From: Methyloceanibacter sp.
Lineage (GTDB): Bacteria > Pseudomonadota > Alphaproteobacteria > Rhizobiales > Methyloligellaceae
Length of the DNA: 64,000 nucleotides
Assembly (NCBI GenBank): GCA_030064755.1
Contig: JASJEH010000001.1
Coordinates: forward strand, 35,352 to 99,351
Direction of reading: 5' to 3'
In this document: one piece after another, positions 15,252 to 31,537 of the stretch
Numbering within the stretch: position 1 is the first letter of the stretch
How the letters are laid out: each line of letters starts with the position of its first letter
Notes under the pieces: generated by a model
Told to the model about the DNA's origin: nothing
The model's database searches: none
Seen by the model: only the letters and a program-made list of their open reading frames with translations
Position numbers and translations under genes: made by a program

Positions 15252-15704
15252 TCGTTGTCCCTCAGAGCCTCCGCGCGTCGTCCCCATATGTAAGCGGCGA
15301 CTTGGTGAGTTTGGAGAGGATCGCGCAAGATCCTAAACATAGTGGCAAAAAGGGCAGTTCCTTGGCTAATAGGACGTGACGCATCAAAAATGTGCCAGCC
15401 TTGTATCTTTCGACGGTTTCACGGCGGTGCCCCCAAGGTGGCGACAGTCGACCTGATGATTTCGTTGCCCCGCTGCCCAAAGATTCGGCATCTGCGCGGA
15501 AATGACCTGGATATCGCCGTGAACTCGATTTGATCGATACACCCTCGGGTGCAATACTTCCTGCGTTCAACGCAATTCCAAGTCCTTAAGAGCGCTGCTG
15601 CCGACGTAAGCGAAGCCTCGCCAGCGCGGCCCCATTCTTGCTTAAATCTTGGCGTTGTCCTTTTTGGCCCGCCGAAACCTTCACCGATAGAGAGGCATCA
15701 GCGT

Positions 15705-17480: not shown

Positions 17481-17487
17481 GCATAGC

Positions 17488-19251
17488 ATGAGCACGGATA
17501 AGAGCAGCTTAGAAGGCACGGAGAACAGAGGCACGCCGCACGGGACGACGCCGCGCGCGGATCTTGCACCGAGAGGCGCGGCCCAAAGCAACGTCGCTTT
17601 CGACTGCGGCTGGGGGCGTCTCTTGTTTGGCCAGACCTTCGCCGATGCATCAGACTTGGCCAACTGCCTCAGGGCCGAAGGTCCGGGGCGCCGCGACATC
17701 GCCTTCTACATTCTCGACCCGCATGTCGTGTTGGCCGCCGCGCCGCAGGAATTGTTCTTGGACCCCTCCCATACTTACAGGCTCGACCTTAAGACCTATG
17801 AGCCAGCCGCGACCGCACCGCGTGGGTTTCATATCCGGCAGCTTGAGTCTCTTCAGGACGCTGAAGAGATAAATCGAATCTATTCGGCGCGGCGCATGGT
17901 GACGGTGGCGCCTAACTTTTTTTGGGAGAACCGCGATAGCGACGCGATAACCTATCTGGTCGCCGTAGACGACAAGACCAATACGATTGTCGGAACCGTC
18001 ACCGGTGTGCATCACCGCGACGCGTTCGGCGATCCCGAAAACGGGTCCTCACTGTGGTGCCTCGCCGTCGATACGCAGTCCACACTGCCCGGCATTGGCG
18101 AAGCGCTGGTTCGCAGTCTTTCGGAACACTTCAGGGAGCGCGGCTGTTCGTACATGGACTTGTCGGTCCTGCACGACAACGAAATGGCCATCACGCTCTA
18201 CGAGAAGCTGGGCTTCATCCGCTGGGCCACCTTCACCGTCAAACGTAAGAACGTCATCAACGAGCAGCTCTTCACCGAGACCTTCGATGACTATGACGCG
18301 CTCAACCCCTATGCGCGGATCATTGTCGACGAAGCCCAGCGGCGCGGCATCGGTGTCGAGATTATCGATGCCGAAGGCGGCTTCTTCCGTCTGACCTATG
18401 GCGGACGGTCCGTCGCATGCCGCGAGAGCCTCACTGCTCTGACTACCGCGATCGCTATGAGTATCTGCGACGACAAGCGGGTCACGCGGCGCATTGTAAA
18501 GGCAGCGGGTGTGCGGGCGCCCGAGCAGGTCACCGTTGACGAAGAAGACGAGGCGCGGGCCTTTTTGGGGCGCTACGGATCGGTCGTGGTGAAGCCAGCG
18601 CGCGGCGAACAAGGCAAAGGCATCGCCGTCGGACTGACAAACTGGGACGACACGAAGACGGCTATCGACTACGCGAAGACCCTTTGCAACGAAGTGGTCT
18701 TGGAGGAGTTCGTCGAGGGCGTTGATTTACGGATCGTCGTCATCAACTACCGGGTCGTTGCGGCCGCGATCCGAAAACCCGCTACGATCATCGGCAACGG
18801 CACGTCCACGGTACGCGAGCTCATCGAACGGCAAACAAAGCGGCGTTTGGCCGCAACCGGTGGAGAATCGGCAATTCCGATGGATACCGAGACCGAGCGG
18901 TGCCTGGCCGTCGCGGGGTACAGCTACGAGGATGTCCCAGAGACCGAAGCTTCCATAGCCGTCCGCAAGACCGCCAACCTACACACTGGCGGGACGATCC
19001 ACGATGTAACGGGCATCCTCCACCGGACCCTGATCGATGCCGCAGTCAACGCAGCGAAAGCAATCGAAATTCCCGTTACGGGGATTGATTTCATCGTGAG
19101 AACGCCGACCGAGCCCGACTACTGGTTCATTGAAGCCAACGAGCGTCCAGGGCTTGCCAACCATGAGCCACAGCCGACGGCAGCTCGCTTCATCGACCTG
19201 CTTTTCCCTCAGACCGTGCCTGCTACTGTGCGCAAAGCGCTTCAAATGTAG
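17488..19251 (+). CDS. ngg: N-acetylglutaminylglutamine synthetase (GNAT + ATP-grasp)
   Basis: CGWGRLLFGQTF, GSSLWCLAVD (GNAT), LNPYARII, VVKPARGEQGKG and FIEANERPGLANHEPQPTA. Confidence 0.9.
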   Translation: MSTDKSSLEGTENRGTPHGTTPRADLAPRGAAQSNVAFDCGWGRLLFGQTFADASDLANCLRAEGPGRRDIAFYILDPHVVLAAAPQELFLDPSHTYRLDLKTYEPAATAPRGFHIRQLESLQDAEEINRIYSARRMVTVAPNFFWENRDSDAITYLVAVDDKTNTIVGTVTGVHHRDAFGDPENGSSLWCLAVDTQSTLPGIGEALVRSLSEHFRERGCSYMDLSVLHDNEMAITLYEKLGFIRWATFTVKRKNVINEQLFTETFDDYDALNPYARIIVDEAQRRGIGVEIIDAEGGFFRLTYGGRSVACRESLTALTTAIAMSICDDKRVTRRIVKAAGVRAPEQVTVDEEDEARAFLGRYGSVVVKPARGEQGKGIAVGLTNWDDTKTAIDYAKTLCNEVVLEEFVEGVDLRIVVINYRVVAAAIRKPATIIGNGTSTVRELIERQTKRRLAATGGESAIPMDTETERCLAVAGYSYEDVPETEASIAVRKTANLHTGGTIHDVTGILHRTLIDAAVNAAKAIEIPVTGIDFIVRTPTEPDYWFIEANERPGLANHEPQPTAARFIDLLFPQTVPATVRKALQM

Positions 19252-19326
19252 GCGTCCGCGTACTACCCATAGGCCGATCCACAAGGAGCGCGAAGCGACA
19301 AGCGCCCTGAACGACAGAGCTGCGTG

Positions 19327-20505
19327 ATGACCATTCTCCATATCGATCTCGACTATCTCGCCGACACGCTTGAGACGTTTCTCAGTATCCCTAGCCCTAC
19401 GAGCTACACCGACAACGCAGTGCAGTGGTGCGGCCAGGAGCTCGACCGGCTTGGCATTCCATTCGAGGTTACACGCCGCGGAGCGATTCGCGCGGTTTTG
19501 CGCGGTAAGGAGCGGCGCCCGGCGCGTGCGATCGCGGCTCACCTAGATACGCTCGGCGCGCAGGTGAAAGCCGTAAAGGACAATGGCCGCCTTGCCGTCG
19601 TTCCTATCGGTTATTGGAGCGCGCGGTTCGCCGAGGGCGCGCGATGCACGATCTTTACCGAGCGCGGCAGCTACCGCGGCACCATCCTTCCATTGATGGC
19701 GTCGGGTCACACTTATGGCGACGACGTGGACGAGCAGGCAACCGGCTGGGCGCATGTGGAAGTGCGTGTCGATGCACGGTGCTCAAGCGCCGGCGAGGCG
19801 GCCAGGCTTGGTATCGATGTCGGAGACATTATCTCCATCGATCCGCAGCCGGAATTCCTGGAGAACGGCTTTATCTGCTCGCGGCACCTCGACGACAAGG
19901 CTGGTGTGGCGGTCATGTTCGCAGCGCTGAAAGCGTTGATCCCCGTGAAGGAACAGCTGCCTGTCGATGTCTATTTTCTATTCACAATCGAAGAAGAGGT
20001 CGGAATCGGCGCGTCAAACATCCTGACGGACGACATTGCCTCCCTGATCGCGATCGACAACGGCACGACTGCCCCAGGTCAGAACAGCGCTGAGTTCGGC
20101 GTGACCCTCGCCATGGCCGATCAGAACGGGCCTTTTGACTACCACCTGACGCGTAAACTGGCCCGCTTGTGCCGGGAAGACGATATCTACTACCAGAAGG
20201 ATGTGTTTCGGCACTACAGGTCTGACGTGGCCTCGGCGGTCGAGGCGGGCCACGACGTTCGCACGGCGTTGATCTGCTTTGGCGTCGATGCGTCGCATGG
20301 GTGGGAACGGATCCATATCCACGCCCTGCGTTCCCTGGCCGAACTCGTCACTGCCTACTTGCTCAGCCCGATTGCGTTCTGGCGCGACGCCGAGCGCGTT
20401 GGCACGCTTGAGGATTTCACCAGCCAGCCGACGGAAAAGGCGCAGCAGAAGCTCTCCTCGGATGTGCGCATGGATGAGATCGAAGACGAGGCCGTCGAAG
20501 AGTAG
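19327..20505 (+). CDS. M42-family peptidase of the NAGGN osmoprotectant cluster
   Basis: AHLDTLGA, SRHLDDKAG, EEEVG, AIDN and DASHG metal ligands. Third gene of the asnO-ngg cluster. Confidence 0.88.
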   Translation: MTILHIDLDYLADTLETFLSIPSPTSYTDNAVQWCGQELDRLGIPFEVTRRGAIRAVLRGKERRPARAIAAHLDTLGAQVKAVKDNGRLAVVPIGYWSARFAEGARCTIFTERGSYRGTILPLMASGHTYGDDVDEQATGWAHVEVRVDARCSSAGEAARLGIDVGDIISIDPQPEFLENGFICSRHLDDKAGVAVMFAALKALIPVKEQLPVDVYFLFTIEEEVGIGASNILTDDIASLIAIDNGTTAPGQNSAEFGVTLAMADQNGPFDYHLTRKLARLCREDDIYYQKDVFRHYRSDVASAVEAGHDVRTALICFGVDASHGWERIHIHALRSLAELVTAYLLSPIAFWRDAERVGTLEDFTSQPTEKAQQKLSSDVRMDEIEDEAVEE

Positions 20506-20660
20506 CCCCTTAGCCCTTACGTCCGCGTCGGACATGGCCGGGACGGCTTGCACAAGGCCGCCTCCCCGCGACCATAACGCGCAACCCCGGCGCCCCATTG
20601 AATCCGAAGTGTCATGTTGCATCGGTAGTTTCCAGTCACCCTGACCACTTGAGTCGCAAC

Positions 20661-21425
20661 ATGTTTTCTCTTTCCGGAAAGAAGGCCCTCGTCCTTGGGG
20701 TCGCAAACGAGGACTCTATCGCGTTCGGCTGCGCGAAGGCGTTCCGCGACCAAGGCGCGGACCTCGCCATCACCTATCAAAACGAACAAGCCGAGAAGCA
20801 CGTCAGGCCGCTCGCGGAAAAGCTTGGCACGGACATCATACTGCCGCTCGACGTGCGTGAGGACGGGCAGTACGCCCAGCTGTTCGATCGCATTCGCCAG
20901 ATCTGGGGCCATGTCGATATCTGCCTGCACTCCATCGCATTCTGCCCGCGCGAGGACCTCCACGGTCGCGTGGTGGACTGTTCGCGCAACGGCTTCATCA
21001 CCGCGATGGACATTTCGGTCTACTCGTTCATTCGCATGGTGCGCCGGGCCGAGCCGCTGATGCGCCATGGTGGCAGCTGCATGACGGTGTCCTTCTTCGG
21101 GGCCGAAAAGGTTGTGGAGAACTACAACATCATGGGACCGACAAAGGCCGCCCTTGAGTCGGTCACGCGCTACATGGCCGCCGAGCTCGGGCCGAAGGGC
21201 ATTAGCGTGAATGCTCTGTCGCCCGGGCCACTTAAGACCCGCGCCGCGTCGGGCATTTCCCGGTTTGATGAGTTGATGAACGAGGCCGCACAGCGTGCGC
21301 CAACCCATCAGTTGGCGTCGATCGAGGACATCGGCGCTTACGCGGCCTTCCTGGCAAGCCGCGAGGCGGGAAACGTTACCGGCGGCGTCCACTATATCGA
21401 TGGCGGGTATCACATTGTCGGATGA
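20661..21425 (+). CDS. fabI: Enoyl-[ACP] reductase FabI
   Basis: GVANEDSIAFG, HSIAFCP, YNIMGPTKAALE (YxxxxxxK), SPGPLKTRAASGI and IDGG. Confidence 0.92.
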   Translation: MFSLSGKKALVLGVANEDSIAFGCAKAFRDQGADLAITYQNEQAEKHVRPLAEKLGTDIILPLDVREDGQYAQLFDRIRQIWGHVDICLHSIAFCPREDLHGRVVDCSRNGFITAMDISVYSFIRMVRRAEPLMRHGGSCMTVSFFGAEKVVENYNIMGPTKAALESVTRYMAAELGPKGISVNALSPGPLKTRAASGISRFDELMNEAAQRAPTHQLASIEDIGAYAAFLASREAGNVTGGVHYIDGGYHIVG

Positions 21426-21429
21426 GACT

Positions 21430-23769
21430 GTGAACAATCCTGGTGGCTACACGCACAGCCGCGATGCTTATGCCCGTCACGCGGCAGAAGATCTCGGCCA
21501 GGCGCATGTCCAGTCGCGGCTCCTGAGCGAGCTTTCCCTCCAGCATGGCTCGGACATTACGGCGCGAGCGCGCACGATTTGGGGGGCGCTGGCCGCCGAA
21601 TGGTGGGGGCTGGCCACGGGCTTGGCGCGCCCTCACGCCCCCGCCAGTCTGGCCGCCTATTGGCACGACGCAGGTCAGCGCGCAGTCCTAACGCTTGAGA
21701 CGTTGTGCCGACGCGGTGATGCCTGCGCCGCTCGCGAAGCCGAAGGCTTCGCGCCAGTACTCGCGTTCGACTACGAGATTATCGTCGATGGGCGCTTGCT
21801 CGACCGTCCGGCAAACTATGCGCTGGTCCGCATTATTCCCCCGGAGGGGACGCCGCCGCCCCGCAACGACCGCCGCCCTTGGGTGATCATCGATCCGAGG
21901 GCCGGCCAGGGTAGCGGGATCGGTGGCTTCAAGAGTGAATCCGAGGTCGGCGAAGCGCTCCGCGACGGTCACCCGGTCTACTTCGTCATCTTCTTCCGGG
22001 ATCCCGAGCCGGATCAAACCTTGGCGGACGTTTGTGCGGCCGAGGCAGAATTCTTAAGAGCGGTCCGTGAGCGGCACCCAAAGAGCTCCAAGCCGCTCGT
22101 AACTGGAAACTGCCAAGGCGGCTGGGCCGCCATGATCCTAGCCGCAACCCATCCTGACCTTATGGGCCCGGTCGTGATCGCAGGCACGCCGCTTTCCTAC
22201 TGGGCTGGCAAGGTTGGGCAAAACCCCTTCCGCTATCTCGCCGGAATGGAAGGCGGCGCGGTGCCAGCCCTATTCACATCCGATCTTGGTGCGGGCAAGT
22301 TCGACGGCGCGACACTCATCCACAATTTCGAGCAGCTCAATCCCGGCAAGACGATTTGGCGGAAAAACTACGACATCTTCTCGAATGTGGATTCGGATTC
22401 GGAGAGGTACCTGGATTTCGAGCGTTGGTGGTCCGGCTTCTACTTCATGAATGCCGCCGAGATTCGCTGGATCGTCGAGAATCTGTTCGTGGGGAACAAG
22501 CTGGTGCGCGGCGAGGCGATGCTGGACGATGGGACGGCGGTCGACCTTACGCGCATCGACTCGCCTGTGGTTGTGTTCGCATCTCACGGCGACAACATCA
22601 CGCCGCCGCAACAGGCGCTATTCTGGATCGCCGACTTGTACGAATCCGTGCAAGAGCTCCAGGCGCGCGGTCATGTCATTGTCTACACACTGCATGACAG
22701 TATCGGCCATCTCGGTATCTTCGTTTCAGCGAAAGTTGCGAACACGCAGCACAAGGAAATCGCTTCGGTCGTTAAGACGATCGAGTCACTCGCTCCAGGC
22801 CTCTACGAGATGCTTATCGATGAGGACAACGGCACGCCGATTGTGTCGTTCGAGGCGCGCACCATTGACGACATTCTGGCTCTTGGCGGTGACCGAGTAG
22901 AGGAGCCGGCCTTCGCCGCAGTCGCACGGCTGTCGGAGTGGGCGGTCAAGACCTATGAGCTGATGGTGCAGCCCACGATGCGCGCGCTGGTTACGCCTGA
23001 GATCGCGGAAACGTTGCGCCAAGCGCATCCCATGCGCTCTCAGTATACGTTCTTCTCAAGCAGCAACCCGTTGTTTGGCGACATCTACTCGGTCGCCGAG
23101 GCGACACGGGAGGCACGCGCGCCCGCGGACGAGACCAATCCCTACCTGCAGCTGGAACGCTGGTCCGCGACCGCAATTGAGCACAGTCTAAACCTCGTCC
23201 GGGACGTGCGCGACGCCTGGATGGAGATCGCCTTCTTCAGCCTTTACGCAAACCCTTGGATGATGCGGCTTGGCGCGACCCAACAGGCCCGCCCGCCCGA
23301 GCACAACGTTCATAAATTGCCTCAGGTTCGCGACGCGATCCAGAATGCGGAGGCTGGCGGATACAAGGAAGCGATCGTCCGCATGCTGATCCTTCTCGCA
23401 CGCGCGCGCGGCTCCGTTCGGCGCGACCGCCTGGAACGAACAAACCGCTTGCTTCACTCGCGCGCGCCATTCGACACGATGACTGCGGATCGGCGGGCGC
23501 GCCTCATCAATGAGCAGAACATGATCGTCGAATTTGCTGGGGATGGCGCGGTGACCTCGCTTTCCGTGTTGCTCCGGGACGATGTCGATCGCGTCCGCGC
23601 GGTCAATCTAGTCTTCGAGATAGTGGGTCCCATGGAGGAGATGGACGATCGGACGATCGCGATGTTCAAGCAGCTGCAATCAACTTTGTACACCATGGCC
23701 CGGGGGTGGAGGGACCCTGCTGCGGCGACGAGGAATGGTGCGGCTCCCGACCTCAGGGTCGGAGCCTAG
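21430..23769 (+). CDS. DUF3141-family alpha/beta-hydrolase-fold protein, PHA-synthase-like (copy 1)
   Basis: IIDPRAGQGSGIGGFKSESEVG, GNCQGGW, SHGDNITP and GHLGIFVS. GTG 21430 is a tentative start. Confidence 0.8.
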   Translation: MNNPGGYTHSRDAYARHAAEDLGQAHVQSRLLSELSLQHGSDITARARTIWGALAAEWWGLATGLARPHAPASLAAYWHDAGQRAVLTLETLCRRGDACAAREAEGFAPVLAFDYEIIVDGRLLDRPANYALVRIIPPEGTPPPRNDRRPWVIIDPRAGQGSGIGGFKSESEVGEALRDGHPVYFVIFFRDPEPDQTLADVCAAEAEFLRAVRERHPKSSKPLVTGNCQGGWAAMILAATHPDLMGPVVIAGTPLSYWAGKVGQNPFRYLAGMEGGAVPALFTSDLGAGKFDGATLIHNFEQLNPGKTIWRKNYDIFSNVDSDSERYLDFERWWSGFYFMNAAEIRWIVENLFVGNKLVRGEAMLDDGTAVDLTRIDSPVVVFASHGDNITPPQQALFWIADLYESVQELQARGHVIVYTLHDSIGHLGIFVSAKVANTQHKEIASVVKTIESLAPGLYEMLIDEDNGTPIVSFEARTIDDILALGGDRVEEPAFAAVARLSEWAVKTYELMVQPTMRALVTPEIAETLRQAHPMRSQYTFFSSSNPLFGDIYSVAEATREARAPADETNPYLQLERWSATAIEHSLNLVRDVRDAWMEIAFFSLYANPWMMRLGATQQARPPEHNVHKLPQVRDAIQNAEAGGYKEAIVRMLILLARARGSVRRDRLERTNRLLHSRAPFDTMTADRRARLINEQNMIVEFAGDGAVTSLSVLLRDDVDRVRAVNLVFEIVGPMEEMDDRTIAMFKQLQSTLYTMARGWRDPAAATRNGAAPDLRVGA

Positions 23770-23828
23770 AACGATCGAAGTGGGCGAAGGTTTCGGCAGC
23801 GGAAAGCGGCAAACCGCAGGAGGCGTAC

Positions 23829-25238
23829 ATGATCCGCGAGAATAGGCTCTATGGCGAGCTGGCTATTGGTGACACGGCATCGGTCAAACGGGTTTGCACT
23901 GCGAATGATCTCTACGTCTTCGCGCATGCTTCGGGGAACCTAAATCCGCTTCATTTGCCGGACGACGATGACAATACCCAGACCGAGGCGGTTGCGCCCT
24001 CGATGTGGGTCGGCGCACTAATCTCCTCGGTGCTTGGGAACGTCCTGCCGGGTCCCGGTACACTTTATCGGTCTCAGAGCTTGAGGTTCCTGGACCGCGC
24101 GCATGTAGGGGACGAGTTAACGATTATCGTTACGGTCAAGGACAAGCTCCCTGGCGGCCTCGTGACTATGGACACAACCGTCAAGGGCCGCGGGGGCGAC
24201 AGTGTCGCCGAAGGCACCGCCGAAGTGCTGGCGCCGGAACGGAAAGTCCGCGTCGACATGGACGAGCTGCCGGAGATTGTTCTCCAGCGGCACGTGCACT
24301 TCGACAACTATATTCGCTCGTGTGACGGCCTTGAGCCGCTGGTGGCGGCGGTCGTCGCCCCCGAGGAAAAGGAATCCCTCGGAGGGGCTCTCCTCGCCGC
24401 ACGGCATGGTCTTATCCGGCCAATCCTTGTCGGCTCTGCGCCGCTCATCCAGCAAGCCGCAAAGGATGCCGGGGAGGATCTCGAGGCATACGAGATTATC
24501 GACGTACCCGATCACGTTGCCGCCGCCGGACGGGCTGTCGAACTTGTCCATGAGGGGTTGGCCGGCGCCGTCATGAAAGGCCACCTCCACACGAGTGATC
24601 TTCTGCGCCAAATTCTAAAGAGCAAAGGCGGCCTGCGCGGCCGCCGGCGCATGAGCCATGCCTTCGTGATGGACGTACCGGGCCTGGAGCATCCGCTCAT
24701 CATCTCGGATGCGGCAATCAATATCACCCCGGACCTGGTCACCAAGGTCGACATAACCCAGAGCGCCATCGACGTTGCCATTGCATTGGGCATCGACAAG
24801 CCGAAGGTCGGCGTGTTGTCCGCAGTGGAAACCGTAAACCCCGAGATTGCTTCGACGCTCGACGCGGCTGCACTTTCGAAAATGTCGGACCGTGGTCAGA
24901 TCAAAGGCGGTGTTGTCGATGGGCCGCTCGCCATGGACAACGCCATGGATGCGGAGGCGGCGACGACCAAGGGCGTTACCGGGCTCGTCGCCGGCCATGC
25001 CGAAGTTCTGATCGTGCCGAACCTGGAGTCAGGCAACATGCTGGCAAAGCAGCTCGCCTTCGTGTCAGGCGCCGAAGCCGCCGGAATTGCGCTTGGCGCC
25101 TCGGTCCCCATAATCTTAACGAGCCGCGCGGATGGCGAGAAGGCTCGGCTCGCGTCTTGCGCCATCGCGGTGCTGTACAGGTACTGGCAGGAGAACGGTC
25201 AGCCCATAGGTATCCGGCTCGCTGAGGCTGCTGAGTAA
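23829..25238 (+). CDS. Bifunctional MaoC-like enoyl-CoA hydratase / phosphate acyltransferase (Pta/Ptb)
   Basis: N-terminal hot-dog motif ASGNLNPLH and LPGPGTLY. C-terminal MKGHLHT, SDAAINI, VDGPLAMDNA and PNLESGNMLAK. Confidence 0.88.
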   Translation: MIRENRLYGELAIGDTASVKRVCTANDLYVFAHASGNLNPLHLPDDDDNTQTEAVAPSMWVGALISSVLGNVLPGPGTLYRSQSLRFLDRAHVGDELTIIVTVKDKLPGGLVTMDTTVKGRGGDSVAEGTAEVLAPERKVRVDMDELPEIVLQRHVHFDNYIRSCDGLEPLVAAVVAPEEKESLGGALLAARHGLIRPILVGSAPLIQQAAKDAGEDLEAYEIIDVPDHVAAAGRAVELVHEGLAGAVMKGHLHTSDLLRQILKSKGGLRGRRRMSHAFVMDVPGLEHPLIISDAAINITPDLVTKVDITQSAIDVAIALGIDKPKVGVLSAVETVNPEIASTLDAAALSKMSDRGQIKGGVVDGPLAMDNAMDAEAATTKGVTGLVAGHAEVLIVPNLESGNMLAKQLAFVSGAEAAGIALGASVPIILTSRADGEKARLASCAIAVLYRYWQENGQPIGIRLAEAAE

Positions 25239-26431
25239 TGACGCATATTCTGACGCTGAATGCCGGATCCTCTTCGATCAAGTTTGCGTTGTTCGAGGCC
25301 GAGAGCCTCAATGAACGCGTCCGCGGTCAGATCGAGGGGATCGGGACGACTCCGCGTCTGAGCGCGAAGGTCGCCGACGCGGACAAGACTGAGAAGGAAC
25401 TCGACGGGAGCGAGATCGACAATCACGCGTCCGCGTTGGCCGCAATCCTTACGTTGATCAACGAGAGCTTCTCTGGCGCCCAGGTGGCCGCCGTAGGACA
25501 TCGTATTGTCCATGGCGGCCCTGACTATGCTTCGCCCATTGTCATTGACGATGAAAGCTTCGCCGGTCTTGAGAAATTCATTCCGCTGGCACCTCTGCAT
25601 CAGCCGCACAACCTATCCGGCGTGCGGGCCGCGCAGGCGGCCTTCCCCGAGGCGGTTCAGATCGCATGCTTCGACACGAGCTTTCACCGTCAGCATCCGT
25701 GGGTGAACGACACGTATGCCTTGCCCTTGGCGCTTTACGAGGAAGGCGTCCGTCGTTACGGCTTTCACGGACTGTCCTACGAATATGTCACGCGGGCCCT
25801 GAAAGAACTGGCGCCCATGCACGCCGCAGGTCGTGTAGTCGTCTCGCATCTCGGCAACGGCGCATCGATGTGCGCCATCCAGGGCGGCCAGAGTGTCGGC
25901 TCGACCATGGGCTTTACCGCGCTCGACGGTCTGCCTATGGGAACACGATGCGGCCAGCTGGATCCCGGCGTTGTTCTCTACCTGATGGCGGCGAAGGGAC
26001 TCTCGGCAACAGAGATCGAAAACCTGCTTTACAAACAATCCGGTCTAAAGGGTCTGTCGGGACTCTCAAATGATATGCGCGTACTCGAGGAGGCTGGCAC
26101 GATCGAGGCGCAGCGCGCGATCGACTACTTCGTCTTCCGTATTCGCCGGGAGCTCGGCGCCATGGTGGCGATTTTGTCGGGCCTCGACGCGCTCGTGTTC
26201 TGTGGCGGTATTGGCGAGAACGCGTGGGGGATCCGCGAGCGTGTCTGCCGAGACTTTGGCTGGCTTGGCCTTGAGCTCGAAGGGTCTCGAAACCGAGCTG
26301 CGGAAACGGTCATCTCATCTGAGCGGTCTCGTGTCCGCGTCTTCATTATCCCGACGAACGAAGAACTCATGATCGCTTCTCACGCGGCGGAGACAGCAAA
26401 GGCGGCTGTCAGGTCGGCCGCCGCCGCGTAA
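25238..26431 (+). CDS. ackA: Acetate/propionate kinase
   Basis: LNAGSSSIKF, GHRIVHGG, APLHQP, FDTSFH, YGFHGLSY, HLGNGAS and PTNEE. TAATG overlap with the upstream gene. Confidence 0.95.
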   Translation: MTHILTLNAGSSSIKFALFEAESLNERVRGQIEGIGTTPRLSAKVADADKTEKELDGSEIDNHASALAAILTLINESFSGAQVAAVGHRIVHGGPDYASPIVIDDESFAGLEKFIPLAPLHQPHNLSGVRAAQAAFPEAVQIACFDTSFHRQHPWVNDTYALPLALYEEGVRRYGFHGLSYEYVTRALKELAPMHAAGRVVVSHLGNGASMCAIQGGQSVGSTMGFTALDGLPMGTRCGQLDPGVVLYLMAAKGLSATEIENLLYKQSGLKGLSGLSNDMRVLEEAGTIEAQRAIDYFVFRIRRELGAMVAILSGLDALVFCGGIGENAWGIRERVCRDFGWLGLELEGSRNRAAETVISSERSRVRVFIIPTNEELMIASHAAETAKAAVRSAAAA

Positions 26432-26465: not shown

Positions 26466-26637
26466 CTCTCGCATGGGTCGCGATTCTCTTGTAGGCGGCA
26501 GGATAGACCCGGCAGAGTTGGCGGTGGGCTGGCGTCACAAGCACCGTGCGCATCCGTGACGGGACAATGTTGCATTTCTGCACCCCATCGAAAGAGATTC
26601 CGCGCCGCATTGATCTCATTTACCTGCGTTTTCGTAT

Positions 26638-26656
26638 TCGTGCTAAAAAAGCACGA
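26638..26656. promoter_or_regulatory. Perfect inverted repeat TCGTGC-N7-GCACGA containing a T-N11-A core, candidate operator
   Basis: Dyad lies 21 nt upstream of the first mipA-like ATG. Confidence 0.35.
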
Positions 26657-26677
26657 CGATTCAACGGGGTTTCAAGA

Positions 26678-27580
26678 ATGCGGCTTGGGTTTGGGTTCTC
26701 GCGGCACTGCCGTCGCGCCTACGGTCTTTTGACGGCGGGCGCGGTGTGCGGCGCGCTTGCGACCGGTTTTTCTGTGTCCGACGCAAGTGCCCAAGCGGCA
26801 TTGGTCGACGGCCCCAGGAGCGGCGAGACCGTTGTACAGAAAAGCGTTGCTGTCGGCCCCGCCGTAATCGTCCGGCCCAAATACGAGGGTTCCCAAGAGC
26901 ACGAAGCCATTCCCATCCCGATTATTATTCCAAAGCTCGTCGAAGAAGAGGACACGCCAGATGGCGTCTTCAAGCAGGTGCGTCAGCGCGTTGCCTTTCG
27001 CGGGCTAGACGATGTCCGCATCCGAGTCTTCGGTGGAGACAGGTTTCAAGTCGGCGCGGTAACTGGTTGGATTACGACACGCGACGAGGACGACGCTGAT
27101 TTCTTGGAAGGAACCGGCGATATCGATGGGGGCCTGGTGGCCGGCGCTTACGCGGCTTATACGATGGGCTTGTTCACGTTCGATGTGGCCTATATCGAGA
27201 AGCTAACGGGGGCTTCAGCTGGCCCACAATACCGTTTCGGCGTCGAGACGAATCGTCCGATATCGGATCGCGGCAACATACTTGTCCGGGCCGGGACGAC
27301 ATTTGCTAGCGCTGAGTTTATGGATACCTATTTCGGGGTGACCCCAAAGCAGAGCCGCAATTCTCGGGCCGGCATTCCGGTTTACACGCCAGATGGCGGC
27401 ATTAAGGACGTCTTCATCGAGCTTGGCGGCAGCTATGACATTTCCGAACGCTGGGTCTTCAAGGGTGGGGTGCGATATGGCCGGCTCCTCGACCAAGCTG
27501 CGGATAGCCCCCTTGTCGAGACACCAGACCAAGTCTCTGGCGTCGTCGGCCTGGCTTACAGATTCTACTTGAGCCCTTAA
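26678..27580 (+). CDS. MipA/OmpV-family outer-membrane protein (paralog 1)
   Basis: Signal peptide ending ASA, PKYEGS, GDIDGG, ASAEFMDTYFGVT, YGRLLDQAADSPLV and C-terminal LAYRFY. Confidence 0.85.
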   Translation: MRLGFGFSRHCRRAYGLLTAGAVCGALATGFSVSDASAQAALVDGPRSGETVVQKSVAVGPAVIVRPKYEGSQEHEAIPIPIIIPKLVEEEDTPDGVFKQVRQRVAFRGLDDVRIRVFGGDRFQVGAVTGWITTRDEDDADFLEGTGDIDGGLVAGAYAAYTMGLFTFDVAYIEKLTGASAGPQYRFGVETNRPISDRGNILVRAGTTFASAEFMDTYFGVTPKQSRNSRAGIPVYTPDGGIKDVFIELGGSYDISERWVFKGGVRYGRLLDQAADSPLVETPDQVSGVVGLAYRFYLSP

Positions 27581-27870: not shown

Positions 27871-28770
27871 ATGCTGGTTGGTTTTGCGCGGCACGTTAGC
27901 CGGGTCTGCGTCAATTTAACAATTGGTGTTGTGTGCGCCGCGCTTGTGAGCGTCTTTGTTGGGTCCGGAGCCTATGCGCAGGCATCGAGTGTCGATGGTC
28001 CGGCGCGCAGCGAAACCACCGTTGCAAAGAGCAGCGTTGGCGTTGGAGCGAGAGTCGTTATTCAACCCAAGTACGAGGGCTCCAAAGAGAGCACGGTGTT
28101 TTGGGCGCCAATCGTGCTGCCGGAACTCGCTCAGAAGTCAAAAAAAGAGAACTCGGTGTATTCAAAAGTGCGCAGCCGCATTGTTTATCGCGGGCTCGAC
28201 GATATACGGATTCGCGTGTTTGGCGGCGACAAATTCCAAGCGGGTGCGACTACCGGTTGGATCAGCGGTCGCAGCCAGGACAGCGCTGATCTCTTGAAGG
28301 GCCTTGGCGACATCGATGGCGGGCTGACCCTTGGTGCCTACGCGGGTTACACAGTCGGAGCCTTTACCATTGATGCCGCCTATATTGAACAGCTCACCGG
28401 CACAACCGCGGGAGCGCAGTACCGTCTCGGCATCGAAACGACGCGGGAGATATCGGACCGCGCGGAGATCACCGTTCGCGCCGGAACGACATTTGCGAGT
28501 GCTGAATTCATGCAGACTTATTTCGGCATCACCCCAACACAGAGCCGCGAGTCACAATCGGGTTTGCCCGTGTATACGCCGGATGGGGGCATCAAGGATG
28601 TCTTCATCGCGGTCGGCGGCAGTTATGACGTCTCCGAACACTGGGTTATCAAAGCGGGCGCTCGCTATGGCCGGCTCCTTGGCGAAGCTGCAGATAGCCC
28701 CATTGTTCAAACGCCAAACCAGTTGTCCGGAAACGTTGGTCTCGCCTACCGCTTCTACTGGAACCGGTAG
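27871..28770 (+). CDS. MipA/OmpV-family outer-membrane protein (paralog 2)
   Basis: Colinear with paralog 1: PKYEGS, RGLDDIRIRVFGG, YTPDGGIKDVF and LAYRFY. Confidence 0.85.
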   Translation: MLVGFARHVSRVCVNLTIGVVCAALVSVFVGSGAYAQASSVDGPARSETTVAKSSVGVGARVVIQPKYEGSKESTVFWAPIVLPELAQKSKKENSVYSKVRSRIVYRGLDDIRIRVFGGDKFQAGATTGWISGRSQDSADLLKGLGDIDGGLTLGAYAGYTVGAFTIDAAYIEQLTGTTAGAQYRLGIETTREISDRAEITVRAGTTFASAEFMQTYFGITPTQSRESQSGLPVYTPDGGIKDVFIAVGGSYDVSEHWVIKAGARYGRLLGEAADSPIVQTPNQLSGNVGLAYRFYWNR

Positions 28771-28878: not shown

Positions 28879-31350
28879 CTACTCGGCAGCCGAAGGCATG
28901 CGCGAGCCGCCTCCCCGTAACGTGCCAAAGCCTCGGCCCGCCAATGGGTCCTCTGTGATATCGCCCGACATCGGCGGCAGACCGAGGACCTGCCGGAAGC
29001 GTTGAATCATCTCAAGCGTGCTCGGCGACATTTCCTCGATCAAGCCAGGCACGTACTGCGCGACCTCGACCGCCAGTTTCCGGTCCTCGGAGGTCTTCAG
29101 CAAGTCGGGCAAAGTTTCGATCGCGGCCTCGCGCTCGAACTGTACCACCAGCGTCTGTTCGTCGATGATCTGACGGCGCCGATCTGTGCTCAATGACTTG
29201 AAGGGCTCGTCTTGGGTGAGGACCGCGCCTGAACGCTCCAGCCGGTCACGCCTTACTTCGCCGCGAGAGTCCGCCAATAGAATCAACATGCGGATCACAG
29301 CCTCGGCGAAACCGCCTTCCGACATGTGGTAAAGCGCCGATTGAACTTCGGGGAGCGCGCGGAGTTCCGACTCGTTCTTCAGCGTGCGGCCCGGCAGATT
29401 CCGCCGGCCGAAAGCCTTCGCCCAGGGATGACCCCATAGCGTGAAGAACATGCTCTCATACATGGCGTCGCGAAGATCGGTCATGAAATCGATGGACTGT
29501 TCAAAGAGCGATGCAAAAACCTGCTCCGCCAAAACAAAGGGATTGTCCGGCGCGGCTGGTTGGCGCTCGTCCTGGGCCTTCGCGGCAAGACTCGTGATGC
29601 CTTGCATAACTGGATTGCGGCTTGAGACGAGGCCGCGCTGAAGCCGCAGCGGATGCATCATGCGTGCCATCTCCGCGGTTCCTGGATTGGTGATCGCTTT
29701 CACAAACGGCCGCAGATAGAAGTCGTATAGCTCCGCCTGGAGCTCCGACATGCGCGCCACTGCAGCAAAAGGAACCTCGTCCTCGCGAGATGGATCGAGC
29801 GTCCGGAGCTGGTCTAAGGAGCGTTCGTGGAAGCTAACCGTGAACTCGCGGCCTTCGCCATGACCGTGGTAGTCGTCGACCTTCATCTCGTACAGGCCGG
29901 GCGGCAGCGATTCGATCGCTTCCATTGTTCCTGTCATCTCGTTGTGCTCACGCTTGGCGATCTTCGACGAAACGAAAATGCCAAGGTGACCTACTTGGTC
30001 GTGCACCATGTAGATGATGCGCTGGCCACGAACACGGATCTCCGAGGCATCCGCGTAACTGTCCACGATCCAATTCAGCGCCTGCGGAGCTGGCGTAATG
30101 TTATCACCATGGCTTGCAAACACGATGATCGGTGAACGGATGTTTTTGACGTCGATATGGCGTCCAGGCTCAAGCTGCGCTTCGTTCTTGGCCAACCGAT
30201 TGCCGACAAAAAGCTGTGAAACGATCCAATGGATCTCCCTCTCGTTGAGAAGGAAGAAACCGCCCCACCACTTCTCGAACTCAAGGAACCGTTCGCGGCC
30301 CGTGTCGATTGTCCGGTAGAGATCGTAGTACTTGCCGAAAAAGTTTCGGCTCGGATTCAGGAGCTCGAAGTTCAGAACCAAATGGGCGCCATCAAACACG
30401 CCGTCGCCCAAGTCCGACCAGAACATCGGTTGCCATGTGCCGCCGAGAATGCCGCCGTTGTAGCGCATCGGGTACTTCCCAACGACACCGCCCCATGTCG
30501 CGACGGGCGACCCGTTCAAAACGATTGGCCCTGTGAGATCATGGTTTGTCGCCGCCAGCAGGAGCGTGGCCCAACCGCCTTGGCAGTTTCCTGTGACGAC
30601 AGGCTTTGGCGCATCGGGATGCCGGCGCGCGACTTCACGCACAAATTCGGCCTCGGCGCGCGTGACATCGGCAAGGCGCTGCCCGGGAATCGGTTCGCGC
30701 CGGAATGCGACGAAGTAAACGGGGTGACCCTTGGCCAACGCAACGCCAACCTGGCTGTCGGATTTGAAGCCGCCGATACCGGCGCCATGGCCAGCACGGG
30801 GATCGATAATGATATAGGGGCGCAATGCGTTATCGATCACAACGCCCTCGGGCGGCAGGATTTTGAGGAGCATGTAATTGCACGGACTTGGCAGACCGGC
30901 GCCGTCGAGAACGACCTCGTAGTCGTATGTGAGAACGGGCGGGCAGCCCGCAGCTTCATGCTCCAGAAAAATGTCGCCGCGTTCGCGCAGTGCATCGAGT
31001 GTCAGCGCCGTTCGCTGGGACGCATCCGTGAGATAGGACGTCCACGCCTCGATGAGCCCCTCTAAGTCCTGCGCCTGCGTAACGTCCTTGGCGATCTCCG
31101 AGAGCTTTCCGATAGACTCTTTCAACCGCTCCTGGTGCTCTCGCGAGATGCGCTCGGCATGGCTCATGGCGCTCCGCATCAGGATGGCTTGGTTCGACTG
31201 CAGACCATCGGCAACTCTCGTCGCGGCTTCCACGCGCCGGTTCAGCATGGCTGCCGGAGAATCCGCGACCGCGCGTGCCACGGAATCGAACATGGATTCG
31301 ATCGCTTGCTCCGGCATCGTGCCGTCGGCGACGGTAACGTTCTCGGTCAT
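28879..31350 (-). CDS. DUF3141-family alpha/beta-hydrolase-fold protein, PHA-synthase-like (copy 2)
   Basis: IIDPRAGHGAGIGGFKSDSQVG, GNCQGGW, SHGDNITP and GHLGIFVS. Colinear with copy 1 but with a longer N-terminus. Confidence 0.82.
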   Translation of the reverse strand: MTENVTVADGTMPEQAIESMFDSVARAVADSPAAMLNRRVEAATRVADGLQSNQAILMRSAMSHAERISREHQERLKESIGKLSEIAKDVTQAQDLEGLIEAWTSYLTDASQRTALTLDALRERGDIFLEHEAAGCPPVLTYDYEVVLDGAGLPSPCNYMLLKILPPEGVVIDNALRPYIIIDPRAGHGAGIGGFKSDSQVGVALAKGHPVYFVAFRREPIPGQRLADVTRAEAEFVREVARRHPDAPKPVVTGNCQGGWATLLLAATNHDLTGPIVLNGSPVATWGGVVGKYPMRYNGGILGGTWQPMFWSDLGDGVFDGAHLVLNFELLNPSRNFFGKYYDLYRTIDTGRERFLEFEKWWGGFFLLNEREIHWIVSQLFVGNRLAKNEAQLEPGRHIDVKNIRSPIIVFASHGDNITPAPQALNWIVDSYADASEIRVRGQRIIYMVHDQVGHLGIFVSSKIAKREHNEMTGTMEAIESLPPGLYEMKVDDYHGHGEGREFTVSFHERSLDQLRTLDPSREDEVPFAAVARMSELQAELYDFYLRPFVKAITNPGTAEMARMMHPLRLQRGLVSSRNPVMQGITSLAAKAQDERQPAAPDNPFVLAEQVFASLFEQSIDFMTDLRDAMYESMFFTLWGHPWAKAFGRRNLPGRTLKNESELRALPEVQSALYHMSEGGFAEAVIRMLILLADSRGEVRRDRLERSGAVLTQDEPFKSLSTDRRRQIIDEQTLVVQFEREAAIETLPDLLKTSEDRKLAVEVAQYVPGLIEEMSPSTLEMIQRFRQVLGLPPMSGDITEDPLAGRGFGTLRGGGSRMPSAAE

Positions 31351-31354
31351 AAGA

Positions 31355-31400
31355 TTGGGCCTTTGGACTGCAGGTTTGTTGGGCCTTTGGACTGTAGGTT
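31355..31400. repeat. Two 22-bp direct repeats (24-bp period) abutting the start of DUF3141 copy 2
   Basis: TTGGGCCTTTGGACTGCAGGTT (31355-31376) and TTGGGCCTTTGGACTGTAGGTT (31379-31400), 1 mismatch. Confidence 0.9.
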
Positions 31401-31503
31401 CAAGTGTCGTGATAAAACCAGACGGAGCGTTACCGCTACGGTCGGATCGAAAACCTACGCGTATTGAATGACAGCCCTTTGAAGCGCGCCTACCCTGGCC
31501 AAC

Positions 31504-31537
31504 AAGGCCTTCGTATTACAATAAGGCCTTAGTATTA
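31504..31537. repeat. Two 15-bp direct repeats (19-bp period) in the same intergenic region
   Basis: AAGGCCTTCGTATTA (31504-31518) and AAGGCCTTAGTATTA (31523-31537), 1 mismatch. Confidence 0.85.

What the first reader, a model, noticed from the sequence alone, without database searches (positions are those of the whole stretch)
20661..26431. fabI-DUF3141-MaoC/Pta-ackA: candidate uncharacterised polyester (PHA-like) synthesis route
Seen: DUF3141 carries a lipase-box Cys (GNCQGG, Cys codon at 22111), Asp (SHGDN, 22591) and His (GHLG, 22708). It is tightly linked to an enoyl reductase, a MaoC/acyl-phosphate transferase fusion and an acyl kinase. Known: PhaC synthases use a G-x-C-x-G Cys plus Asp and His, MaoC/PhaJ hydratases supply (R)-3-hydroxyacyl-CoA, and a similar orfA-pta-ackA-fabI operon was described in S. 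meliloti with orfA unassigned. Inference: this could be a self-contained route from short acid to acyl-P, acyl-CoA and then polymer or oligomer through a non-canonical synthase, or the reverse depolymerising route yielding ATP.
Basis: partly seen in the sequence, partly recalled or inferred. Interest (0 to 1): 0.68.

Follow-up and report, generated by a model that had tools for sequence, protein, structure and literature searches.

The report
PhaC-like DUF3141 operon tied to PHB
This is a real four-gene operon, widespread and already described, that joins an uncharacterised relative of the bioplastic (PHB) synthase to ATP-yielding acyl-phosphate enzymes. It more likely draws energy from stored PHB than makes a new polymer, and its chemistry has never been tested.

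Summary
fabI (20661-21425), DUF3141 (21400-23769), a hot-dog/Ptb fusion (23829-25238) and ackA (25238-26431) form one tight operon, and the Cys, Asp and His codons lie at 22111, 22591 and 22708.

The triad is invariant in 61 homologues. It aligns with the catalytic triads of PhaC (hhalign 86%) and of intracellular PHB depolymerase (43%). In a confident AlphaFold model it sits in the canonical alpha/beta-hydrolase positions, and the best PDB fold matches are PHA synthases.

The module is conserved with shuffled gene order in about half of 79 loci from Alpha-, Beta- and Gammaproteobacteria. All 34 DUF3141-bearing genomes among 400 sampled also carry a canonical PhaC.

The "self-contained synthesis route" reading is weak:
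- The hot-dog domain has Asn where the catalytic Asp should be, in 31 of 41 fusions, and the domain is missing in S. meliloti and Ralstonia.
- FabI runs only in the reductive direction.
- This genome already has phaA, phaB, phaC, phaZ, phaR and phasins.

The reverse route, PHB to acyl-CoA to acyl-phosphate to ATP with FabI as an NADH sink, fits better but is untested.

The operon type has been in print since 1999, and this scan has met it at least 17 times on other DNA. It is a new member of a known, biochemically unsolved kind.

The parts
20506..20660 (+). Intergenic region upstream of fabI, the presumed operon promoter
   Evidence: A 155-nt gap follows the NAGGN-system M42 peptidase gene. 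Two sequence blocks are conserved with the two closest relatives, L007 and L043. There is only one 6/7 Pho-box half-site (GTGTCAT) and no clear FNR/FixK box. Relatives carry full Pho-like and FixK-like boxes.
20661..21425 (+). fabI: dedicated enoyl-thioester reductase, the third FabI paralogue of this genome
   Evidence: NF005717 scores 421 bits against a cut-off of 337. Y155-x6-K162 is present. Two other FabI paralogues in the genome are only 43-45% identical. Module-linked FabIs of Beta- and Gammaproteobacteria are 55-58% identical.
21400..23769 (+). DUF3141 copy 1 (789 aa): a PhaC/PhaZ-superfamily cysteine alpha/beta hydrolase. Cys codon 22111-22113, Asp 22591-22593, His 22708-22710
   Evidence: PF11339 scores 750 bits. 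The AF2 model has pLDDT 86.8 and pTM 0.84. Foldseek's best matches are PHA synthases. hhalign against a PhaC profile gives 86% probability with the triad aligned. Against a PhaZ profile it gives 43%.
23829..24380 (+). Hot-dog (PhaJ/MaoC-like) N-terminal domain of the fusion. The catalytic Asp is replaced by Asn (codon 23937-23939); the His is kept (23952-23954)
   Evidence: Match to 5cpg, an (R)-specific enoyl-CoA hydratase, at 1.4e-28. The alignments show N where four solved hydratases have D. N is present in 31 of 41 module fusions, and His is also lost in 8.
24381..25238 (+). Ptb-like phosphate acyltransferase domain of the fusion
   Evidence: Match to 7vg9, a phosphate butyryltransferase, at 6.5e-67, against about 1e-11 for Pta structures. 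It is the only PTA_PTB gene found in the assembly.
25238..26431 (+). ackA: acetate/propionate-family acyl kinase
   Evidence: TIGR00016 scores 398 bits. Match to 1g99 at 5e-87. The positions equivalent to M. thermophila V93, L122, F179 and P232 read V, L, F, A here and in 33 of about 39 module kinases. It is the only AckA in the assembly.
28879..31350 (-). DUF3141 copy 2 (823 aa), converging on the operon across two mipA genes. Cys 30583-30585, Asp 30103-30105, His 29986-29988
   Evidence: PF11339 scores 755 bits. It is 47% identical to copy 1. Its N-terminal 117 aa score 24.7 bits on Phasin_2, just under the cut-off of 24.9. Two adjacent DUF3141 copies recur in 8 of 79 loci.

Best explanation
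DUF3141 is a cysteine acyl-enzyme transferase of the PhaC/intracellular-PhaZ superfamily. It acts on the PHB made by the cell's canonical PhaC, probably at the granule surface.

The most likely reaction is transfer of 3-hydroxybutyryl units from the polymer to CoA, that is thiolysis through a Cys238 thioester, with Asp398 and His437 as the rest of the triad. The co-transcribed Ptb-like phosphotransacylase and AckA then convert short acyl-CoAs (acetyl-CoA, possibly butyryl- or 3-hydroxybutyryl-CoA) through acyl phosphate into free acid plus ATP. The dedicated FabI reduces crotonyl-CoA to butyryl-CoA and so disposes of NADH. Together this would let a PHB-loaded aerobe gain ATP and keep redox balance when respiration or phosphate is limiting.

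Shown here: the homology, the aligned triad, the fold, the operon structure, the conservation of the module and its confinement to PhaC-bearing genomes.

Inferred: the substrate, the direction of flux, granule location and physiological role.
For: Triad and fold:
- C238 lies between strand 233-237 and helix 239-250, the nucleophile elbow. D398 follows strand 390-395 and H437 follows strand 426-432 in the model (pLDDT 86.8).
- Foldseek's top 11 hits are all PHA synthases; 3 of the next 3 are not (E 1e-7 to 3e-6).
- hhalign aligns all three residues with the invariant Cys, Asp and His of 30 PhaCs (86%, E 5e-6).
- It also aligns them with the Cys-Gln-Pro, Asp-Asp and Gly-His-Tyr-Gly motifs of 21 intracellular PhaZ (43%, E 2.5e-4). 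PhaZ1 of R. eutropha is reported to work by thiolysis to 3HB-CoA (PMC3430594).

Module:
- Among 79 DUF3141 loci from three proteobacterial classes, the hot-dog/Ptb fusion is adjacent in 41, AckA in 39 and FabI in 40. Several gene orders occur.
- Further neighbours are two-subunit CoA-transferase, thiolase and acyl-CoA dehydrogenase, all C4 acyl-CoA enzymes.

Dependence on PHB:
- 34 of 34 DUF3141-positive genomes carry PhaC_N, against 202 of 400 overall.
- This genome has phaC, phaZ, phaR, phaA, a phaB-like SDR next to phaA, and seven phasins.
- Copy 2 has a near-threshold phasin-like N-terminus.

Direction:
- FabI is an extra paralogue, and enoyl reduction is effectively irreversible (established biochemistry).
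- The phosphotransacylase domain is Ptb-like.

Regulation in relatives:
- Pho-box-like repeats with at most 2 mismatches occur upstream in 12 of 20 fabI-first loci, and FixK/FNR-like boxes in several.
- A PhaC-type gene, Pta/Ptb and AckA are induced 75- to 224-fold at low oxygen in the B. cenocepacia lxa locus, which is needed for anoxic persistence (PMC3721108).

From memory, not checked here: the C. necator H16 DUF3141 proteins A0671 and B1632 are PHB-granule proteins whose deletion slightly slows PHB mobilisation (Sznajder et al. 2015).
Against: - No activity has been measured for any DUF3141 protein.
- Sequence does not separate a synthase from a thiolytic depolymerase; the PhaC profile actually matches better than the PhaZ profile.
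- The AckA acid pocket keeps V93, L122 and F179 of acetate kinase, with only P232 changed to Ala. That favours C2/C3 acids over butyrate.
- The hot-dog domain that should make crotonyl-CoA lacks its catalytic Asp. The FabI substrate would then have to come from another hydratase, such as the canonical SGDINPVH PhaJ found on contig C65.
- None of the 79 loci has PhaC or PhaZ within 8 kb.
- The window's own promoter shows no clear Pho, FNR or PhaR site.
- Pho control is not obviously explained by an anoxic fermentation role.
- The genome is a 90.6% complete draft, so statements that a gene is the only copy are provisional.
Confidence: 0.42

Rival explanations
1. DUF3141 is an additional, non-canonical PHA (or oligo-hydroxyalkanoate) synthase. 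AckA and the Ptb-like enzyme activate free short acids to CoA esters that it polymerises. This could work as an electron and carbon sink under low oxygen or phosphate limitation. It is the first reader's main reading.
For: - The PhaC profile is the best remote match, and PHA synthases top the fold search.
- Similarity extends into the PhaC-specific cap region.
- Pho boxes in relatives fit PHB accumulation under phosphate limitation.
- The authors of the lxa paper suggest that AckA/Pta may feed acetate into PHA synthesis, with the polymer as an electron sink (PMC3721108).
- Engineered Buk/Ptb routes to hydroxyacyl-CoA for PHA are known (own knowledge).
Against: - DUF3141 never occurs without a canonical PhaC in 34 of 34 sampled genomes.
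- The PhaC_N domain is absent, and the curated PhaC models score 25-33 bits against cut-offs of 365-623.
- FabI cannot run from saturated acyl to enoyl.
- The hot-dog domain has lost its catalytic Asp and is dispensable in other lineages.
- From memory: phaC-null C. necator and S. meliloti make no PHB although they carry DUF3141 genes.
Confidence: 0.17
2. The module is mainly an acetyl-CoA to acetyl-phosphate to acetate overflow or signalling pathway under phosphate or oxygen stress. DUF3141 is an accessory thioesterase or acyltransferase that does not use the PHB polymer as substrate.
For: - The AckA pocket is acetate-like.
- These are the only Pta and AckA genes in the assembly, so they probably also serve general acetate metabolism.
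- From memory of Summers et al. 1999: the S. meliloti enzymes showed acetyl activities and PhoB control.
- Pho-like boxes occur in relatives.
Against: - This does not explain the strict nesting of DUF3141 within PhaC-bearing genomes.
- It does not explain the PhaC/PhaZ-type cysteine triad or the phasin-like N-terminus of copy 2.
- It does not explain the conserved dedicated FabI, the Ptb-like rather than Pta-like transferase, or the C4 neighbours.
Confidence: 0.2
3. DUF3141 is an acyl-ACP:CoA (or 3-hydroxyacyl-ACP:CoA) transacylase that drains fatty-acid-synthesis intermediates. FabI would act on ACP esters, and the Ptb/AckA pair would turn the product into acid plus ATP.
For: - FabI matches a curated enoyl-ACP reductase model above its cut-off.
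- A cysteine acyl-enzyme suits thiol-to-thiol transfer (inference).
- PhaG-type alpha/beta hydrolases link fatty-acid synthesis to PHA (own knowledge).
Against: - No ACP, FabH/F/G/Z or PlsX genes were found among the recurrent neighbours.
- The link to PhaC genomes and the similarity to PhaC and PhaZ point to the polymer.
- No similarity to PhaG was seen.
Confidence: 0.08

Closest known systems
Sinorhizobium meliloti orfA-pta-ackA-fabI operon (Summers, Denton and McDermott 1999, J Bacteriol 181:2217; cited in PMC8231600; the paper itself was not readable here)
   Same: It has the same four protein families, co-directional and adjacent. The S. meliloti plasmid locus reads DUF3141 (738 aa, 44% identical), pta, then fabI, with a gap where ackA lies. 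OrfA is therefore a DUF3141 protein. Pho-box-like repeats upstream of the module in many Hyphomicrobiales relatives match its reported PhoB control.
   Different: Here fabI comes first rather than last. The transferase carries an N-terminal hot-dog domain that S. meliloti lacks (318-aa Pta). A second DUF3141 paralogue lies nearby. No convincing Pho box is present in this window's own promoter.
PHA synthase PhaC, classes I-IV (structures 5hz2, 5t6o, 5xav, 6k3c, 9knj-l)
   Same: Both have the alpha/beta-hydrolase core with a G-x-C-x-G-G nucleophile elbow. The Asp and His sit in equivalent positions, and the cap region is similar.
   Different: DUF3141 has no PhaC_N domain. Identity is about 15-20%. 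Curated PhaC models score far below their cut-offs. The motif is Asn-Cys-Gln rather than x-Cys-Val/Leu, and Asp-Asn rather than Asp-His. DUF3141 has a helical N-terminal hairpin and a helical C-terminal domain of about 280 aa. No polymerase activity is known.
Intracellular PHB depolymerase PhaZa1/PhaZ1 type (PHB_depo_C, PF06850), reported to cleave PHB by thiolysis to 3HB-CoA (PMC3430594, citing Uchino et al. 2007)
   Same: Both use a cysteine nucleophile followed by Gln (Cys-Gln). The motifs Asp-(Asp/Asn)-Ile and Gly-His-x-Gly-(Ile/Val)-Phe align.
   Different: The profile match is weaker (43%). There is no PF06850 hit, and the domain architecture and size differ.
Burkholderia sensu lato 'group D' phaC/phaJ-pta/ackA/fabI clusters (PMC8231600) and the B. 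cenocepacia low-oxygen-activated lxa locus (PMC3721108)
   Same: A PhaC-family gene is clustered with a PhaJ-Pta fusion, ackA and fabI. The lxa genes are induced 75- to 224-fold at low oxygen, and the locus is needed for anoxic persistence. Burkholderia and Caballeronia plasmids carry DUF3141-pta-ackA-fabI and DUF3141-fabI-fusion-ackA.
   Different: The lxa gene BCAM0297 is annotated as a class I PhaC. Whether the review's group D proteins are DUF3141 could not be settled here. Those clusters also carry phaB and alcohol dehydrogenases, which this window lacks.
Pseudomonas class I phaC genomic islands that carry DUF3141 (bioRxiv 10.1101/2025.03.12.642780)
   Same: DUF3141 travels with phaC, phaR and phaP, and in class I.3 islands also with eutD, ackA and fabI.
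   Different: Here the module is chromosomal, is not next to phaC, phaR or phaP, and shows no sign of a mobile element in the window.

Membership tests
DUF3141 (Pfam PF11339) | Score above the curated gathering threshold over the whole domain | tested here: met
   Copy 1 scores 750.3 bits and copy 2 scores 755.2 bits, against a cut-off of 29.7.
PHA synthase (PhaC) | Cys in a G-x-C-x-G-G nucleophile elbow, with Asp and His at positions equivalent to the PhaC triad | tested here: met
   hhalign of A1 against 30 PhaCs aligns C238, D398 and H437 with the invariant PhaC Cys, Asp and His (86%). The secondary-structure positions are canonical.
PHA synthase (PhaC) | PhaC_N domain (PF07167), or a score above the curated class I or class III models | tested here: not met
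   No PF07167 hit. TIGR01836 scores 32.9 bits against 365.3, and TIGR01838 scores 25.1 against 622.65.
PHA synthase (PhaC) | Polymerises (R)-3-hydroxyacyl-CoA with release of CoA | not testable with these tools
   This needs an enzyme assay.
Intracellular PHB depolymerase (PhaZa1 type) | PHB_depo_C domain (PF06850) and a Cys-Asp-His triad | tested here: inconclusive
   The triad aligns with a profile of 21 PhaZ, but at only 43% probability. There is no PF06850 hit.
orfA-pta-ackA-fabI type operon | DUF3141, a Ptb-like phosphotransacylase, AckA and FabI, co-directional and closely spaced | tested here: met
   The same set is found in 39-41 of 79 loci and in S. meliloti, Ralstonia and Burkholderia records.
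orfA-pta-ackA-fabI type operon | PhoB (Pho box) control | tested here: inconclusive
   The window's promoter has one 6/7 half-site only. Twelve of 20 related promoters have full Pho-like repeats.
(R)-specific enoyl-CoA hydratase (PhaJ/MaoC, hydratase 2 motif) | Catalytic Asp and His in the motif S/T-G-D-x-N-P-x-H | tested here: not met
   The window reads SGNLNPLH. Four solved homologues have Asp at that position. Asn is found in 31 of 41 module fusions.
Phosphate butyryl/acetyl transferase (PTA_PTB) | Score above the curated model; closest solved relative | tested here: met
   NF006045 scores 619 bits against 282. Match to 7vg9 (Ptb) at 6.5e-67. Acyl-chain preference was not tested.
Acetate/propionate kinase | Score above TIGR00016; acid pocket residues | tested here: met
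   397.6 bits against 293.4. The pocket reads V, L, F, A where M. thermophila has V93, L122, F179, P232.
Enoyl-ACP reductase FabI | Curated equivalog score and the Tyr-x6-Lys catalytic pair | tested here: met
   NF005717 scores 420.9 bits against 337. Y155 and K162 are present. Whether the thioester carrier is ACP or CoA was not tested.

The most novel reading that the evidence does not exclude
The module is a complete granule-surface PHB fermentation (dismutation) pathway. Two DUF3141 paralogues, perhaps as a heterodimer, release 3HB-CoA by thiolysis. Part is oxidised and cleaved to acetyl-CoA, and part is dehydrated and reduced by FabI to butyryl-CoA. Ptb/AckA then yield acetate, butyrate and about three ATP per two monomers with closed redox balance. 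This would explain how strictly respiratory methylotrophs and methanotrophs survive anoxia on PHB. A genome-scale model of Methylocystis parvus could not reproduce that idea (PMC6554988), yet Methylocystis genomes carry the module (L072, L080).
Probability: 0.28. Interest if true: 0.7.

Novelty: new member of a known kind. Interest (0 to 1): 0.4.

Why it matters
DUF3141 occurs in 34 of the 400 Pseudomonadota genomes sampled, always alongside PhaC, yet no activity has ever been assigned to it. If it releases CoA esters from PHB and feeds a substrate-level phosphorylation route, it would add an energy-conserving, oxygen-independent branch to PHB mobilisation. That bears on survival of rhizobia, methanotrophs, purple sulfur bacteria and wastewater PHA-cycling bacteria, and on bioplastic yield in production strains. 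The finding is not new: the operon was published in 1999, the link between DUF3141 and PHA is in print, and this scan has reported the module many times on other DNA. What this window adds:
- the degenerate hydratase domain;
- the paired paralogues;
- the strict nesting within PhaC-bearing genomes.

Tried and rejected
- A single-sequence phmmer search against the PDB aligned PhaC His508 with the His of ARGH. This was rejected because that position is Gln in the family consensus, while the GHLG His is invariant and is the one aligned by profile-profile comparison.
Distances within the triad could not be measured, and only the secondary-structure topology was used.
- Pfam scans of the DUF3141 tails at E up to 10 gave nothing for the C-terminal ~190 aa of copy 1 and ~206 aa of copy 2, or for the N-terminus of copy 1. 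The N-termini of distant homologues are too divergent for a phasin test.
- The isochorismatase gene upstream of copy 2 is linked only in the closest relative, so it was dropped.
- PhaC and PhaZ were sought within 8 kb of 79 DUF3141 loci and none was found.
- The class-level co-occurrence sample gave 3 of 3, too small to mean anything. It was replaced by the 400-genome sample.
- The papers of Summers 1999 and Sznajder 2015 could not be opened. Statements from them rest on citing papers or on memory and are marked as such.
- A scan for sigma-70 promoters and terminators gave only chance-level hits.

Full report
**Observation.** The region holds four co-directional genes.
- fabI lies at 20661-21425 (NF005717, 421 bits against a cut-off of 337).
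- A DUF3141 gene lies at 21400-23769 (PF11339, 750 bits). Its 789-aa product is on record with exactly this start.
- A hot-dog/phosphotransacylase fusion lies at 23829-25238 (NF006045, 619 bits). It most likely starts at the ATG behind an AGGAGG site.
- ackA lies at 25238-26431 (TIGR00016, 398 bits).

fabI and DUF3141 overlap by 26 nt, and the fusion and ackA overlap by 1 nt. Upstream lies an unrelated NAGGN osmoprotectant operon. Downstream lie two mipA genes and then, converging on the minus strand, a second DUF3141 paralogue (28879-31350) with the same three motifs.

**What DUF3141 is.**
- Across 61 homologues of 42-85% identity, C238, D398 and H437 (789-aa numbering) are invariant, together with N237, Q239, G240, G241 and W242.
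- Among 150 cluster representatives at 50% identity or less, about 95 of the roughly 100 that cover the site keep Asn-Cys-Gln/Ala.
- The AlphaFold2 model is confident (pLDDT 86.8, pTM 0.84). It shows an N-terminal helical hairpin (16-114), an alpha/beta-hydrolase core (about 120-445) and a helical C-terminal domain (502-777).
- In the model, C238 sits between a strand and a helix (the nucleophile elbow), D398 follows the next-to-last core strand, and H437 follows the last.
- Foldseek against the PDB puts PHA synthases of A. caviae, Chromobacterium and C. necator in its first 11 places (E 1e-7 to 3e-6), just ahead of generic alpha/beta hydrolases and a Bacillus PhaZ.
- By sequence, the best PDB match is C. 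necator PhaC. A family profile reaches A. caviae PhaC through the cap region. The weakest significant tblastn hits in plasmids are class III PhaC, including that of Haloferax mediterranei.
- Profile-profile comparison with 30 alphaproteobacterial PhaCs gives 86% probability (E 5e-6, 237 columns), with all three triad residues aligned.
- The same comparison with 21 intracellular PhaZ gives 43% (E 2.5e-4, 243 columns), again with the triad aligned. It reveals shared Cys-Gln and Gly-His-x-Gly-(Ile/Val)-Phe motifs.

DUF3141 is therefore a third branch of the cysteine-nucleophile PhaC/PhaZ superfamily. It fails the membership tests for PhaC proper: it has no PhaC_N domain, and the curated models score tenfold below their cut-offs.

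**The partners.**
- *Transferase domain.* It is far closer to Clostridium phosphate butyryltransferase (7vg9, 6.5e-67) than to Pta structures (about 1e-11).
- *Hot-dog domain.* The N-terminal domain is homologous to (R)-specific enoyl-CoA hydratase PhaJ (5cpg, 1.4e-28), but its hydratase motif reads SGNLNPLH. The catalytic Asp of all four solved relatives is Asn here. In 41 fusions next to DUF3141, 31 have Asn and 10 (a Beta/Gamma clade) keep Asp; 8 have also lost the His. The domain is absent altogether in the S. meliloti, R. solanacearum and Burkholderia RPE67 versions. The genome has a separate canonical hot-dog hydratase with SGDINPVH. Hydration by the fusion is therefore not a core step of the module.
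- *AckA.* It keeps the acetate-kinase pocket residues V93, L122 and F179 and changes P232 to Ala. Thirty-three of about 39 module kinases share this pattern.
- *FabI.* It has the Tyr-x6-Lys pair and is the third FabI paralogue of the genome. It is 43-45% identical to the other two, but 55-58% identical to module FabIs of other classes.
- *Copy number.* The operon's Pta and AckA are the only ones found in this 90.6% complete draft.

**Conservation and context.**
- Of 79 DUF3141 loci in one-per-species genomes of Alpha-, Beta- and Gammaproteobacteria, 41 have the fusion, 39 AckA and 40 FabI within 8 kb. At least four gene orders occur. Association that survives rearrangement indicates functional coupling.
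- Other recurrent neighbours are two-subunit CoA-transferase, thiolase and acyl-CoA dehydrogenase.
- Two adjacent DUF3141 copies recur in 8 loci.
- The nearest named relative is Methyloceanibacter methanicus (85% identity, same synteny, L043).
- In an even sample of 400 Pseudomonadota genomes, DUF3141 occurs in 34 and PhaC_N in 202, and all 34 DUF3141 genomes have PhaC_N. Relatives are not independent (27 genera), but the nesting is strong.
- The window's genome has phaC, phaZ, phaR, phaA with a phaB-like SDR beside it, and seven phasins elsewhere.
- The N-terminus of copy 2 scores 24.7 bits on Phasin_2, against a cut-off of 24.9.

**Regulation.** The window's promoter (20506-20660) shares two sequence blocks with its two closest relatives but has no clear Pho, FixK/FNR or PhaR-type site. 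In 20 related fabI-first promoters, Pho-box-like repeats with at most 2 mismatches occur in 12. About 8e-4 per sequence would be expected by chance, by my own estimate. FixK/FNR-like TTGA-N6-TCAA boxes or TGC/GCA palindromes occur in others. This agrees with the PhoB control reported for S. meliloti (cited in PMC8231600). It also agrees with the 75- to 224-fold low-oxygen induction of a PhaC-type gene, Pta/Ptb and AckA in the B. cenocepacia lxa locus, which is needed for anoxic persistence (PMC3721108).

**Mechanism.** The synthesis reading needs FabI to run backwards and needs an active hydratase. Neither fits, and DUF3141 never stands in for PhaC.

The catabolic reading has these steps:
1. 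DUF3141 takes 3HB units from the polymer onto Cys238 and passes them to CoA, as reported for PhaZ1 (PMC3430594).
2. Acyl-CoAs go through the Ptb-like enzyme and AckA to acid plus ATP.
3. FabI reduces crotonyl-CoA as an NADH sink.

This reading uses every conserved gene in its favourable direction. It also matches the C4 neighbours and the low-oxygen regulation. It remains inference, and several points weigh against it. The kinase pocket looks acetate-like. The source of crotonyl-CoA is unclear in the Asn clade. Pho control is unexplained. No DUF3141 enzyme has been assayed. I give the full chain 0.42. I give the narrower statement, a PHB-linked PhaC/PhaZ-superfamily enzyme in a conserved acyl-phosphate module, about 0.85.

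**Novelty.**
- The operon type was published in 1999.
- DUF3141 has been discussed with PHA synthases (bioRxiv 10.1101/693432).
- It has been reported beside phaC, phaR, phaP and eutD-ackA-fabI in Pseudomonas islands (bioRxiv 10.1101/2025.03.12.642780).
- The phaC/phaJ-pta/ackA/fabI cluster has been reviewed for Burkholderia (PMC8231600).
- This scan holds at least 17 earlier findings of the same module on other DNA, and one note on copy 2 of this same window.

This is a new member of a known, biochemically unsolved kind.

Noticed in passing
window 23937-23939 (Asn codon), within 23829-24380: The PhaJ-like hot-dog domain fused to the phosphotransacylase has Asn in place of the catalytic Asp (SGNLNPLH). 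The change is conserved in 31 of 41 fusions, and 8 also lack the His. The domain may be a CoA-ester binding or regulatory module rather than a hydratase.
   Followed up: partly
window 28879-31350 (-) and 31355-31400: The second DUF3141 paralogue has a near-threshold Phasin_2 N-terminus. A 24-bp tandem direct repeat (1.9 copies, 95% match) lies directly upstream of its start codon, and a 19-bp repeat lies at 31500-31537.
   Followed up: partly
window 15549-20505 (+): A complete NAGGN osmoprotectant operon: an asparagine-synthase-like amidotransferase, N-acetylglutaminylglutamine synthetase (TIGR03103, 877 bits) and an M42 peptidase (TIGR03106, 563 bits).
   Followed up: no
window 9945-11909 (+) and 11925-15287 (-): A protein that joins an N-terminal YkuD L,D-transpeptidase domain to a full Mur-ligase module. 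Next to it is a 1120-aa YkuD/Scaffold-domain protein. This is an unusual pairing for peptidoglycan remodelling.
   Followed up: no
window 26546-27580 and 27871-28770 (+): Two tandem MipA/OmpV-family outer-membrane protein genes lie between the two DUF3141 genes. One MipA gene is found in the same place in the two closest relatives (L007, L043) and not elsewhere.
   Followed up: partly
loci L035, L064-L066, L072-L074, L078, L085: In Methylocapsa, Methylocystis, Bradyrhizobium, Roseovarius and Polynucleobacter, the module also carries a two-subunit CoA-transferase (PF01144). This fits acetoacetate or butyrate handling.
   Followed up: partly
L153 (Caballeronia sp. SBC2 plasmid pSBC2-4): The module sits between a cytochrome oxidase cluster on one side and a P-type proton ATPase plus a polyphosphate:ADP phosphotransferase on the other. 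This hints at an energy-stress island.
   Followed up: no
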